Assembly (NCBI RefSeq): GCF_003334335.1
Contig: NZ_QOWQ01000064.1
Source of the DNA: Escherichia coli
GTDB taxonomy: Bacteria > Pseudomonadota > Gammaproteobacteria > Enterobacterales > Enterobacteriaceae
Reading direction: 5' to 3' (one strand)
Length of the DNA stretch: 10,732 nt
Within the stretch, counting starts at the first letter, position 1. Every line of letters begins with the position of its first letter. Of the stretch, positions 3,642 to 4,604 are shown in pieces. The translations under genes and the position numbers were made by a program. A model generated the notes under the pieces. It saw only the letters and a list, made by a program, of their open reading frames with translations, had not been told where the DNA came from and ran no database searches.

Positions 3642-4604
3642 ATGAGCAGCAAGCTTCATGGTCTTGTCTGGGAAGGGTGCGCCTTCACCGGCATGATCTT
3701 ATCCAGGGTGGCGGTTATGGCCCGTCTTGCAGACTACAGCAATGACGAGGGCGTGTCATGGCCTGCCATTGAAACTATCCGGCGTCAGATCGGTGCAAGA
3801 AGTGAATCCACAGTGAAATCGGCTATTGCAGAACTGGCGAAAGAGGGCTGGCTGACGAAGGAAGAGCGTAAGGTCGGTGGGCGTAATGTAAGCAATATCT
3901 ATCGACTTAATGTGGAAAAACTCGAAGCAGCTGCGGCGGCGGCGCGTGAGTCATATAAACCGAAAAGAAAAATTAGCCCGGCAAAAAATGACCCGTTAAC
4001 AGTTGACCCGTCAAATATTGACCCCTCAACGGTTGACCCGTCAAATTTTGATGGATCAACTGTTGATAAAAAACTGCCGATTAGGGGGGCGATGATTGAC
4101 CCCGATCCGTCAGTATTAAAACCTGATCCGTCAGATAAAAGATCTTCTTGTCCGGACGCTTCGCAACCGGACCCGCAGACGGCTGAACAGGATTTTTTAA
4201 CCCGACACCCTGACGCGGTTGTGTTCAGTGCGAAAAAACGCCAGTGGGGAAGTCAGGAAGATTTGGTGTGCGCACAGTGGATCTGGGGACGAATCGTGAG
4301 TCTTTACGAACAGGCTGCCAGTGACGATGGTGAGATCACGCGACCGAAAGAGCCCAACTGGACGGCGTGGGCCAATGACGTGCGCACAATGCGGATGCTG
4401 GATGGAAGAAGTCACAGACAAATTTGCGAAATGTTCAGCCGGGCACAACGGGATCCGTTCTGGATAAAAAACATCAAGAGCCCGGAAAAACTCCGTGAGA
4501 AATGGGATGAACTGGTTATTCGACTGTGGCGTGGTCCCGCGCAGCGTTGCGTGAATCATATTTCTGAACCGGATACCGAAATTCCGCCGGGTTTCAGGGG
4601 GTAG
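3642..4604 (+). CDS. Phage replication initiator (lambda O-like, iterons inside its own gene), about 320 aa
   Basis: Sits immediately upstream of the DnaC-like loader; the central region encodes repeated DPxxVDPSN peptides produced by the DNA iterons at 3989-4063. Start ATG 3642 (GGGGG upstream) is preferred over 3627. Confidence 0.7.
   Translation: MSSKLHGLVWEGCAFTGMILSRVAVMARLADYSNDEGVSWPAIETIRRQIGARSESTVKSAIAELAKEGWLTKEERKVGGRNVSNIYRLNVEKLEAAAAAARESYKPKRKISPAKNDPLTVDPSNIDPSTVDPSNFDGSTVDKKLPIRGAMIDPDPSVLKPDPSDKRSSCPDASQPDPQTAEQDFLTRHPDAVVFSAKKRQWGSQEDLVCAQWIWGRIVSLYEQAASDDGEITRPKEPNWTAWANDVRTMRMLDGRSHRQICEMFSRAQRDPFWIKNIKSPEKLREKWDELVIRLWRGPAQRCVNHISEPDTEIPPGFRG
3989..4063 (+). repeat. Iteron array (five tandem 15-bp repeats, consensus TGACCCGTCAANNNT) followed by an A/T-rich stretch: candidate prophage replication origin
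   Basis: TGACCCGTTAACAGT / TGACCCGTCAAATAT / TGACCCCTCAACGGT / TGACCCGTCAAATTT / TGATGGATCAACTGT, then TGATAAAAAACTG and further GATCCGTCAG repeats (about 4098-4135); same layout as the lambda ori inside O. Confidence 0.6.

What the first reader, a model, noticed from the sequence alone, without database searches (positions are those of the whole stretch)
3989..4140. Replication origin embedded in the initiator gene, imposing a repeated DPSxVDPSN peptide
Five tandem 15-bp iterons followed by an A-rich tract and additional GATCCGTCAG repeats lie inside the O-like ORF; the DNA repeats force a repetitive, proline- and aspartate-rich linker in the protein. This is the lambda O/ori arrangement with a different iteron sequence, so it defines a distinct replicon specificity.
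Basis: seen in the sequence. Interest (0 to 1): 0.4.

Follow-up and report, generated by a model that had tools for sequence, protein, structure and literature searches.

The report
Prophage replication origin inside initiator gene
The repeats are real and are most likely the replication origin of an E. coli lambda-like prophage, lying inside the gene for its own initiator protein; this layout is textbook, though this particular family's origin has not been described in the papers I could search.

Summary
Observation confirmed. Five in-frame 15-bp units lie at 3989-4063, with a degenerate sixth. They are followed by a short A-run and two GATCCGTCAG copies (4104-4113, 4125-4134). All sit in the linker of a 320-aa gene (3642-4604) that precedes a DnaC-like gene.

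Interpretation largely supported:
- The C-terminal domain is 40% identical to lambda O (E 6e-25). The N-terminal domain is a different winged helix (Pfam HTH_36).
- All 75 complete relatives examined carry the same layout, with a 10-bp palindromic core TGA-N4-TCA repeated every 15 bp.
- The constraint is on the DNA. Ser in the repeats is TCA in 95/104 cases, against 11% elsewhere. The base before GA is a third codon position, yet it is T in 74% of cases across 14 different amino acids.
- Third-position variation is far lower over 3945-4150 than in the flanking coding sequence.
- Iteron flavour tracks the N-terminal domain type, while C-terminal domains are shuffled at about 4155.

Corrections:
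- The better unwinding candidate is the conserved AT-rich GATC block (4103-4150), not the A-run.
- Specificity is clearly distinct from lambda, but the core is shared across the family.
- Origin firing is untested.

This is a new member of a known kind, present in about 28% of complete E. coli genomes and annotated there only as an HTH protein.

The parts
3642..4604 (+). O-like replication initiator gene (320 aa from the ATG that RefSeq uses; an upstream GTG at 3627 is also in frame). It has a winged-helix N-terminal domain (aa 1-100), a repeat linker (aa ~102-171), a lambda-O-like C-terminal domain (aa ~182-293) and a DnaT-like tail (aa 298-320).
   Evidence: ORF list. PHROG 391, 5e-113. Pfam HTH_36 over aa 30-76. 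40% identity to lambda O aa 171-270, E 6e-25. AlphaFold model of aa 1-100 with pLDDT 87.8, a winged helix whose PDB matches are MarR/PerR/PaaX-type DNA binders. RefSeq annotation is 'helix-turn-helix domain-containing protein'.
3945..3988 (.). A-rich left flank of the array (64% AT). It has low third-codon-position variation and is probably part of the origin.
   Evidence: AT content and the least stable 20-30-mers of the region. Third-position polymorphism is 0.29 here (mean minor-allele frequency 0.015), against 0.75 (0.118) in the N-terminal coding part, among 28 distinct close relatives.
3989..4063 (.). Iteron array of five 15-bp units. Each has a palindromic core TGA-N4-TCA (perfect at 4004, 4019, 4034 and 4049; one mismatch at 3989). 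Half-sites TTGAC / GTCAA alternate every 7-8 bp, which gives a 30-bp super-period. A degenerate sixth unit follows at 4064-4078.
   Evidence: Tandem repeat and motif results. The same phased array is present in all 75 complete relatives examined. Copy number varies from 3 to 7 in steps of 15 bp. Codon evidence for a DNA-level constraint. As single-stranded DNA the array folds into a hairpin, z -4.7.
4064..4102 (.). Spacer: degenerate unit TGATAAAAAAC with an A6 run (4068-4073), a G6 run (4084-4089), then ATTGACCCC (4095-4103), an exact copy of 4017-4025.
   Evidence: Sequence. Repeat family D14. 50% AT over 4067-4102.
4103..4150 (.). Conserved AT-rich block holding two GATCCGTCAG repeats (4104-4113, 4125-4134), an A-tract, and three of the four clustered GATC sites (4104, 4125, 4141). 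Best candidate for the unwinding and helicase-entry region.
   Evidence: 60% AT; holds the least stable 40-mer of 3930-4170 (4110-4149). The homologous block is the least stable 40-mer of the whole gene in 9 of 14 family representatives. It is 72-88% identical to the window across subfamilies whose N-terminal coding DNA is 61-80% identical. It has the lowest third-position variation of all segments, 0.19. GATC positions.
4151..4165 (.). Mosaic junction (approximate). Downstream of '...SSCP', different C-terminal domain types are joined to the same N-terminal-plus-origin module.
   Evidence: Megablast matches to other phages start at query position 478 or 511, which is window 4104 or 4137. Cross-table of N-terminal and C-terminal clusters. 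Linker sequences of L040-L046 compared with the window.
4611..5351 (+). DnaC-like AAA+ helicase loader gene. It is the presumed partner that delivers host DnaB to the opened origin.
   Evidence: NF009043, 471 bits (above its cut-off). DnaC model NF005931 scores 300 bits, below its cut-off of 357. PHROG 50 'DnaC-like helicase loader'.

Best explanation
This is the replication origin of a lambdoid (Rac/Qin-like mosaic) E. coli prophage, lying in the linker-coding part of its own initiator gene.

Proposed mechanism:
1. The initiator's N-terminal winged-helix domain binds, probably as dimers, to the alternating TTGAC/GTCAA half-sites of the five 15-bp iterons (3989-4063). It may also bind the iteron-like GATCCGTCAG sites.
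2. The resulting nucleoprotein complex destabilises the adjacent conserved AT-rich block (4103-4150).
3. The lambda-O-like C-terminal domain and its DnaT-like tail recruit the phage DnaC-like loader carrying host DnaB onto the opened DNA.

Because the iteron period is 15 bp (5 codons), the binding sites impose a D/E-x-S pentapeptide repeat on the protein linker.

Shown here: the repeats, their DNA-level constraint, the domain homologies, the family-wide layout and the modular co-variation. Inferred: binding of the initiator, the site of unwinding, helicase recruitment and origin firing.
For: - Repeats are real and non-random.
- Gene identity: PHROG 391 O-like. C-terminal domain 40% identical to lambda O, E 6e-25. 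N-terminal domain is a confident winged-helix model. A DnaC-like gene lies directly downstream.
- Position matches lambda, where the four annotated iterons lie in the O linker and a 78% AT stretch follows. PMC7466680 and PMC8022706 state that lambdoid origins lie in the middle of O / gene 18, with phage-specific iterons.
- Family-wide: all 75 complete relatives from viral contigs and phages have 15-bp phased TGA-N4-TCA units directly after the winged helix, always in the same frame, with 3-7 copies.
- DNA-level constraint: in linker [DE]xS tripeptides, Ser is TCA in 95/104 cases against 35/319 Ser codons elsewhere (p 2e-53). The preceding third codon base is T in 77/104 cases against 22% elsewhere (p 5e-28), although 14 different amino acids are encoded.
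- Among 28 distinct close relatives, third positions are polymorphic in 75% of codons in the N-terminal domain and 65% after the junction, but only 19-42% across 3945-4150.
- Iteron consensus differs between N-terminal clusters, while C-terminal domain types are shuffled.
- The GATC block is more conserved than the coding DNA across subfamilies.
Against: - There is no experimental evidence here for binding or firing.
- The AT-rich candidate is only 60% AT (z about 2), against 78% (z 3.2) in lambda. In the window the least stable 40-mer of the gene lies elsewhere, at nt 242 of the gene.
- The codon statistics count related sequences and duplicated units, so the p-values overstate independence.
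- Low third-position variation could partly reflect recent recombination of this segment.
- In some O157 copies one core is broken (GAC to GCC), so some copies may be decaying.
- DnaA boxes are not enriched.
Confidence: 0.85

Rival explanations
1. The repeats are binding sites for the initiator, or for another protein, but serve regulation rather than initiation. Possible roles are autoregulation, titration or handcuffing, or exclusion of related phages. The true origin lies elsewhere in the prophage.
For: Iteron arrays can inhibit replication when supplied in excess; PMC3349717 appeared in the search and I read only its abstract. The AT-rich element here is weak. No firing data exist.
Against: The layout of initiator domain, iterons, AT-rich block and loader gene copies lambda's origin layout. 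The constrained DNA tract spans about 200 bp, including a conserved AT-rich block. No other tandem array of comparable score exists in the 10.7-kb window.
Confidence: 0.07
2. The repeat is selected at the protein level only, as a flexible Asp/Pro/Ser-rich linker. The DNA periodicity is a by-product of tandem duplication.
For: The repeats are in frame, and copy number changes in whole 5-codon units. Linkers of this composition are common.
Against: The invariant bases include a third codon position whose codon encodes 14 different amino acids. Ser is TCA in 91% of cases against 11% elsewhere. The middle residue varies freely (P, A, G, T, C) while the palindromic TGA/TCA arms are kept across subfamilies that are 61-72% identical in the N-terminal DNA. 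Third-position variation is suppressed.
Confidence: 0.03
3. It was an origin, but it is a dead relic in a defective prophage and no longer fires.
For: The neighbourhood is a Rac/Qin-like mosaic with dicB, ydfC and hokD. Some relatives have broken cores or lost units. In one relative (L014) the DnaC-like gene is missing.
Against: In the window the initiator ORF, all five units, the GATC block and the DnaC-like gene are intact. Third-position conservation across 28 distinct copies argues for continuing selection. Related modules occur in isolated, plaque-forming phages such as SfIV, phiNP, YeP2 and Flotzy.
Confidence: 0.05

Closest known systems
Bacteriophage lambda ori-lambda within gene O, with lambda P as helicase loader
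   Same: The origin lies in the linker-coding middle of the initiator gene. It has several dyad-symmetric initiator binding sites, followed on the same side by an AT-rich stretch. The C-terminal domain is homologous (40% identity, E 6e-25). The helicase-loader gene lies immediately downstream. The N-terminal-plus-iteron part behaves as a specificity module that recombines with C-terminal domains.
   Different: The N-terminal domain matches Pfam HTH_36 and cannot be aligned with lambda O. The iterons are 15-bp units with a TGA-N4-TCA core, abutting and in frame. Lambda's are 18-bp ATCCCTCAAAACGAGGGA-type sites spaced 20-24 bp apart and out of frame, so lambda has no peptide repeat. The AT-rich block is weaker and carries GATC-containing repeats. 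The loader is DnaC-like rather than P. The initiator also ends in a DnaT-like tail.
P22 gene 18 and phage L gene 18 origins (lambdoid phages with other iterons inside the initiator gene)
   Same: PMC8022706 describes distantly related ori-binding proteins that each bind different iterons within their own coding region: four ~20-bp repeats in P22, and six 11-bp TGTCCAACGGA repeats in L. This is the same principle as here.
   Different: The iteron sequence differs, and the partner is a DnaB-type helicase (gene 12) rather than a DnaC-like loader. I did not compare the proteins directly.
Initiators of Shigella phages SfIV/SfII, Citrobacter phiNP, Yersinia YeP1-3, Klebsiella Kp4866-6 and Stx2e phage phiP27 gene L17 ('primosomal protein' / 'replication protein O')
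   Same: These are true relatives. N-terminal domains are 49-67% identical. They have the same 15-bp phased TGA-N4-TCA arrays, the same downstream GATCC(G/A)TCAG pair and the same A-tract.
   Different: Flanks and central bases of the iterons differ (TCTGACnCGTCAAAA, TTTGAnGnnTCAAA, TCTGAACCTTCAGAA). Copy number is 3-7. The C-terminal domain may be DnaD-like or P27-type. Several lack a DnaC-like gene next door.
Rac prophage replication module ydaU-ydaV (oriJ)
   Same: Same gene order: repressor, cro-like, YdaT, initiator, DnaC-like. The C-terminal tails are alike (IPPGFRG). PMC3945230 states that Rac has an active origin, oriJ.
   Different: YdaU is a DUF1376 protein with no other similarity to the window protein. 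Its internal repeats are different: CAGATGTTCAA at 33-bp spacing.

Membership tests
Lambdoid O-type initiator with an internal origin | C-terminal domain homologous to the lambda O C-terminal (P-binding) domain | tested here: met
   BLASTP of window aa 182-293 against lambda O aa 171-270: 40% identity, E 5.8e-25.
Lambdoid O-type initiator with an internal origin | N-terminal origin-binding domain of the lambda O sequence family (Pfam Phage_rep_O) | tested here: not met
   The Pfam scan gives only HTH_36 (E 3.9e-6) and a weak DnaD_N match. BLASTP finds no N-terminal match to lambda O, and lambda O does not align in the MAFFT alignment. The fold is a winged helix. PMC5509034 reports an HTH_36 assignment by HHpred in its lambda O / DopC comparison, so remote homology is possible but was not shown here.
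Lambdoid O-type initiator with an internal origin | Four or more repeated, dyad-symmetric sites in the part of the gene that codes for the inter-domain linker | tested here: met
   Five 15-bp units at 3989-4063 with palindromic cores, at aa 116-141, between the winged helix (aa 1-100) and the C-terminal domain (aa 182 onward).
Lambdoid O-type initiator with an internal origin | AT-rich unwinding region next to the iterons on the promoter-distal side | tested here: inconclusive
   4103-4150 is 60% AT, and 4110-4149 is the least stable 40-mer of the origin region (z 2.1). The homologous block is the least stable 40-mer of the gene in 9 of 14 relatives, at about 70% AT. Lambda's region is 78% AT (z 3.2). 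Actual unwinding cannot be tested with these tools.
Lambdoid O-type initiator with an internal origin | Iteron sequence co-varies with the N-terminal domain, and the pair forms an exchangeable specificity module | tested here: met
   Six N-terminal clusters each have their own iteron consensus. C-terminal types are shuffled among them, e.g. N1xC0 20 genes, N1xC1 8, N2xC1 12, N2xC0 1. DNA matches to other phages begin at window 4104 or 4137.
Lambdoid O-type initiator with an internal origin | The initiator binds the iterons, and the cloned region replicates autonomously when O and the loader are supplied | not testable with these tools
   The only hint is a 15,977-bp circular record (NZ_CP148542.1) made only of the cI-to-lysis part of such a prophage, with no other replicon typed. 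This could be an assembly artefact.
Lambdoid O-type initiator with an internal origin | Helicase-delivery gene immediately downstream of the initiator | tested here: met
   The gene at 4611-5351 scores 471 bits on NF009043 and matches PHROG 50 'DnaC-like helicase loader'. It is of the DnaC type, not the lambda P type.
Iteron plasmid origin (RepA/pi/TrfA type) | DnaA boxes beside the iterons | tested here: not met
   TTATNCACA with up to 1 mismatch gives 7 sites in the window against 9.0 expected. No perfect box is present.
Protein-only tandem repeat (disordered linker with no DNA function) | Synonymous sites in the repeat are free to vary, and codon choice is as in the rest of the gene | tested here: not met
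   Ser is TCA in 95/104 cases against 35/319 elsewhere. The third base before GA is T in 77/104 cases against 22% elsewhere. Third-position polymorphism is 0.19-0.42 within 3945-4150, against 0.65-0.75 in the flanks.

The most novel reading that the evidence does not exclude
This HTH_36-type family may use an origin geometry unlike lambda's. Half-sites alternate in orientation every 7-8 bp (15-bp period), forming an unbroken chain of overlapping palindromes. That would place successive winged-helix dimers on nearly opposite faces of the helix and can also fold as a 67-nt hairpin. The array is coupled to a family-wide conserved AT-rich block whose GATC-bearing repeats (21-24 bp apart, 12 bp in Klebsiella phages) would make firing sensitive to Dam methylation and SeqA. 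A DnaT-like C-terminal tail would recruit DnaC-DnaB. If so, this module would also be a living relative of the phage ancestor of the E. coli dnaT-dnaC operon.
Probability: 0.2. Interest if true: 0.55.

Novelty: new member of a known kind. Interest (0 to 1): 0.3.

Why it matters
This module, at 80% or more of its length, is present in 1514 of 5426 complete E. coli genomes, including O157:H7. Relatives occur in Shigella, Klebsiella, Citrobacter and Yersinia phages. In RefSeq the gene is labelled only 'helix-turn-helix domain-containing protein', and no origin is annotated.

Knowing the origin (about 3945-4150) and its iteron code has three uses:
- It allows prediction of which co-resident prophages can cross-activate or interfere with each other's replication.
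- It gives a compact replicon for vectors.
- It shows concretely how an in-frame binding-site array dictates a protein linker sequence.

It does not change the textbook picture of lambdoid replication.

Tried and rejected
- DnaA boxes: not enriched.
- Sigma-70 promoters and intrinsic terminators inside the gene: none beyond chance.
- Homology to Rac YdaU, the presumed oriJ initiator: only the last 19 residues match. This is not the oriJ replicon.
- Sequence search of the PDB: only the DnaT tail matches.
- Fold search of the N-terminal model: generic winged-helix regulators, no initiator-specific match.
- Plasmid collection as a natural cloning experiment: most hits lie on very large records that look like chromosomes or chromids. 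One 16-kb circle is suggestive but may be an artefact, and the e14-like circle OR902858 carries only a truncated relative.
- Full-text search for the iteron strings: only unrelated primer sequences. The keyword searches found no description of this family's origin. The library lacks most subscription journals, so an earlier description cannot be excluded.
- The A-run at 4068-4073 as the unwinding element: rejected in favour of 4103-4150.
- Deciding whether the dimer site is the within-unit palindrome (TTGAC-CC-GTCAA) or the between-unit one (GTCAA-ATA-TTGAC): not possible from sequence, because both share the same arms.

Full report
**What is in the sequence**

Window 3989-4063 holds five head-to-tail 15-bp units: TGACCCGTTAACAGT, TGACCCGTCAAATAT, TGACCCCTCAACGGT, TGACCCGTCAAATTT and TGATGGATCAACTGT. 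A degenerate sixth, TGATAAAAAACTGCC, follows. Tandem Repeats Finder reports the array with period 15 (5 copies) and, with better matching, period 30 (80-84%). Two copies of GATCCGTCAG lie at 4104-4113 and 4125-4134.

A search with TGAYCCGTCAR finds 19 sites at up to 2 mismatches, against 8.4 expected (0 of 200 shuffles reach 19). All seven sites with 0-1 mismatch fall in 3989-4134.

The units are in frame in the ORF 3642-4604 and give the peptide NDPLTV-DPSNI-DPSTV-DPSNF-DGSTV-D...IDPDPSVLKPDPSDK. The one weak point is the 'A-rich tract', which is only six A (4068-4073) followed by six G, in a 50% AT spacer.

**Where the window comes from**

The gene is 100% identical to a prophage gene of E. 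coli JE86-ST05. That prophage sits beside ompW and has the order int, xis, exonuclease, dicB ... cI-like, cro-like, YdaT-like, this gene, a DnaC-like ATPase, DUF1627, DUF977 ... RusA, antiterminator. Matches covering at least 80% of the gene occur in 1514 of 5426 complete E. coli genomes, mostly at 95-99% identity, including O157:H7. RefSeq calls the gene only 'helix-turn-helix domain-containing protein'.

**What the gene is**

- It matches PHROG 391 'replication initiation O-like' over its whole length (5e-113).
- Pfam sees only HTH_36 at aa 30-76.
- An AlphaFold model of aa 1-100 is confident (pLDDT 87.8). It is a winged helix whose nearest solved structures are MarR/PerR/PaaX-type DNA binders.
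- Residues 182-293 are 40% identical to residues 171-270 of lambda O (E 6e-25), while the N-terminal parts do not align.
- The last 23 residues (…SEPDTEIPPGFRG) match the C-terminus of E. coli DnaT and of Rac YdaU.
- The next gene (4611-5351) is DnaC-like (NF009043, 471 bits).

The gene is therefore a chimera in the lambda sense: a different origin-binding domain joined through a repeat linker to a lambda-O-type C-terminal domain, with a DnaC-type rather than P-type loader.

**Comparison with lambda**

In the lambda record the four annotated iterons lie in the O linker (record 39034-39118). A 40-mer of 78% AT follows directly. PMC7466680 and PMC8022706 state that lambdoid origins lie in the middle of O / gene 18, and that lambda, P22 and L each have different iterons in the coding region.

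The window has the same order of parts. The differences:
- Lambda's iterons are 18 bp, spaced 20-24 bp apart and out of frame with each other, so they impose no peptide repeat.
- Here the period is exactly five codons.

**The family**

tblastn with the N-terminal domain found relatives at 35-67% identity in Shigella phages SfIV/SfII, Citrobacter phiNP, Yersinia YeP1-3, Klebsiella phages, Stx2e phage phiP27 and others. A scan of viral contigs added 80 loci. Of the 90 genes collected in all (80 viral-contig loci plus 10 from phage and E. coli records), 79 are distinct and 75 are complete.

Every one of the 75 complete genes has 15-bp phased units immediately after the winged helix, always in the same reading frame. 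The shared core is the 10-bp palindrome TGA-N4-TCA. It occurs 3-6 times within about 75-90 bp, where 0.04 per 150 bp is expected. Copy number ranges from 3 to 7 and changes in whole 15-bp steps; window-type genes have 5, 4 or 3 units.

**The constraint is on DNA, not only on the peptide**

I selected sites by the protein pattern [DE]-x-S alone, in 16 representatives.
- Ser in the linker is TCA in 95 of 104 cases, against 35 of 319 Ser codons elsewhere in the same genes (p 2e-53).
- The third base of the preceding codon is T in 77 of 104 cases, against 22% elsewhere (p 5e-28), although that codon encodes 14 different amino acids.
- The middle residue varies freely: P, A, G, T, C.

These counts include related sequences and duplicated units, so the p-values overstate independence. 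Even so, the pattern holds across subfamilies whose N-terminal DNA is only 61-72% identical.

Among 28 distinct close relatives of the window gene, the share of polymorphic third codon positions is:

| Segment | Window coordinates | Polymorphic third positions |
|---|---|---|
| N-terminal domain | 3642-3944 | 75% |
| A-rich left flank | 3945-3988 | 29% |
| Iteron array | 3989-4066 | 35% |
| Spacer | 4067-4102 | 42% |
| GATC block | 4103-4150 | 19% |
| After the junction | 4151-4201 | 65% |

. This outlines a DNA element of about 200 bp, 3945-4150.

**Modularity**

N-terminal clusters each have their own iteron flavour:
- window type: TTGACCCGTCAAAT
- SfIV type: TCTGACnCGTCAAAAT
- Klebsiella type: TTTGAnGnnTCAAA
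- phiP27 type: TCTGAACCTTCAGAAT

Three C-terminal domain types (lambda-O-like, DnaD-like, P27-type) are combined with them in several ways. DNA matches to other phages start at window 4104 or 4137, and at protein level the junction lies just after '…SSCP' (about 4155). This is the behaviour expected of an origin-plus-recognition-domain specificity module. Specificity is clearly different from lambda, but the core, and even TGACCCGTCAA itself, is shared with SfIV-like phages, so cross-recognition within the family is open.

**The second block**

The stretch GATCCGTCAGTA…TGATCC(G/A)TCAGATAAAAAA…TTCTTGTCCGG is conserved across all subfamilies. It is 72-88% identical to the window, gaps included, against 61-80% for the N-terminal coding DNA. 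It is the least stable 40-mer of the whole gene in 9 of 14 representatives, at about 70% AT. In the window it holds the least stable 40-mer of the origin region (4110-4149; the 4103-4150 block is 60% AT).

It lies where lambda has its AT-rich region, so I take it, rather than the A6 run, as the best unwinding candidate. Three of the four clustered GATC sites (4054, 4104, 4125, 4141; 27 in the whole window) lie in this block. A role for Dam/SeqA is speculation.

**Geometry**

TGA and TCA are reverse complements, so the array is an unbroken chain of palindromes. Both TTGAC-CC-GTCAA (within a unit) and GTCAA-ATA-TTGAC or TCAAC-G-GTTGA (between units) are near perfect. This explains the 30-bp super-period. 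It also explains a 67-nt hairpin predicted when the strand is folded alone (-16.9 kcal/mol, z -4.7). Which register a dimer uses cannot be told from sequence.

**What did not help**

- DnaA boxes are not enriched.
- No promoter or terminator signal above chance lies inside the gene.
- Rac YdaU shares only the tail.
- A 15,977-bp circular record consisting only of the cI-to-lysis part of such a prophage (NZ_CP148542.1) hints at autonomous or runaway replication, but it may be an assembly artefact.
- Searches of the paper library for the iteron strings, and for descriptions of this family's origin, found nothing relevant. The library is incomplete.

**Verdict**

It is corrected on the nature of the N-terminal domain, on the likely unwinding element and on how 'distinct' the specificity is.

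Origin firing and initiator binding are inferred, and my confidence in them is about 0.85. This is a new, widespread but unannotated member of a well-known kind, and interest is modest.

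Noticed in passing
window 4533-4601 (aa 298-320 of the initiator): The C-terminal tail …RCVNHISEPDTEIPPGFRG closely matches the last 23 residues of E. coli primosomal protein DnaT (PDB 6aep, 2ru8, 9zbt) and the tail of Rac YdaU. It also ends both the lambda-O-like and the DnaD-like C-terminal domain types in the family. With a DnaC-like gene next door, the layout mirrors the E. coli dnaT-dnaC operon. The function of the tail is not established in the 2026 preprimosome paper I read.
   Followed up: partly
L002 4472-4563 and 4601-4620 (E. coli K-12 Rac ydaU): The unrelated Rac initiator gene ydaU also has mid-gene repeats: four copies of ~CAGATGTTCAA, mostly 33 bp apart. 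They are followed by ATAAAG x3.3. These are candidate oriJ iterons inside the initiator gene.
   Followed up: no
L097 (NZ_CP148542.1, whole record; module at 1660-3390): A 15,977-bp circular 'plasmid' record from a dog E. coli isolate consists only of the cI-to-lysis segment of this prophage type, with no other replicon typed. Its O-like gene carries two compensating homopolymer indels that look like read errors. It is either a lambda-dv-like circle or an assembly artefact.
   Followed up: partly
window 4054, 4104, 4125, 4141: Four GATC sites lie within 88 bp, against 27 in the whole 10.7-kb window. Two are inside the GATCCGTCAG repeats, 21 bp apart. The GATC in these repeats is conserved in Shigella, Klebsiella, Yersinia and phiP27-type relatives.
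   Followed up: partly
window 4053-4074 and 4451-4472: GGATCAACTGTTGATAAAAAAC at the end of the array recurs, 77% identical, as GGATCCGTTCTGGATAAAAAAC about 400 bp downstream in the C-terminal domain coding part. This may be chance.
   Followed up: no
window 2238-2876 (- strand): A 212-aa cI/LexA-like repressor ORF, with an HTH N-terminus and an S24 peptidase C-terminus, is open in the window. RefSeq annotates only the C-terminal 112 aa in the matching genome (L001 7612-7950). The start may be miscalled there.
   Followed up: no
L014 (E. coli 2022H048), L015 and L035 (O157-type copies): Some chromosomal copies show decay or variation of the module. One 15-bp unit is lost and the DnaC-like gene is absent in L014. 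A GAC to GCC change breaks the third core in O157-type copies.
   Followed up: partly
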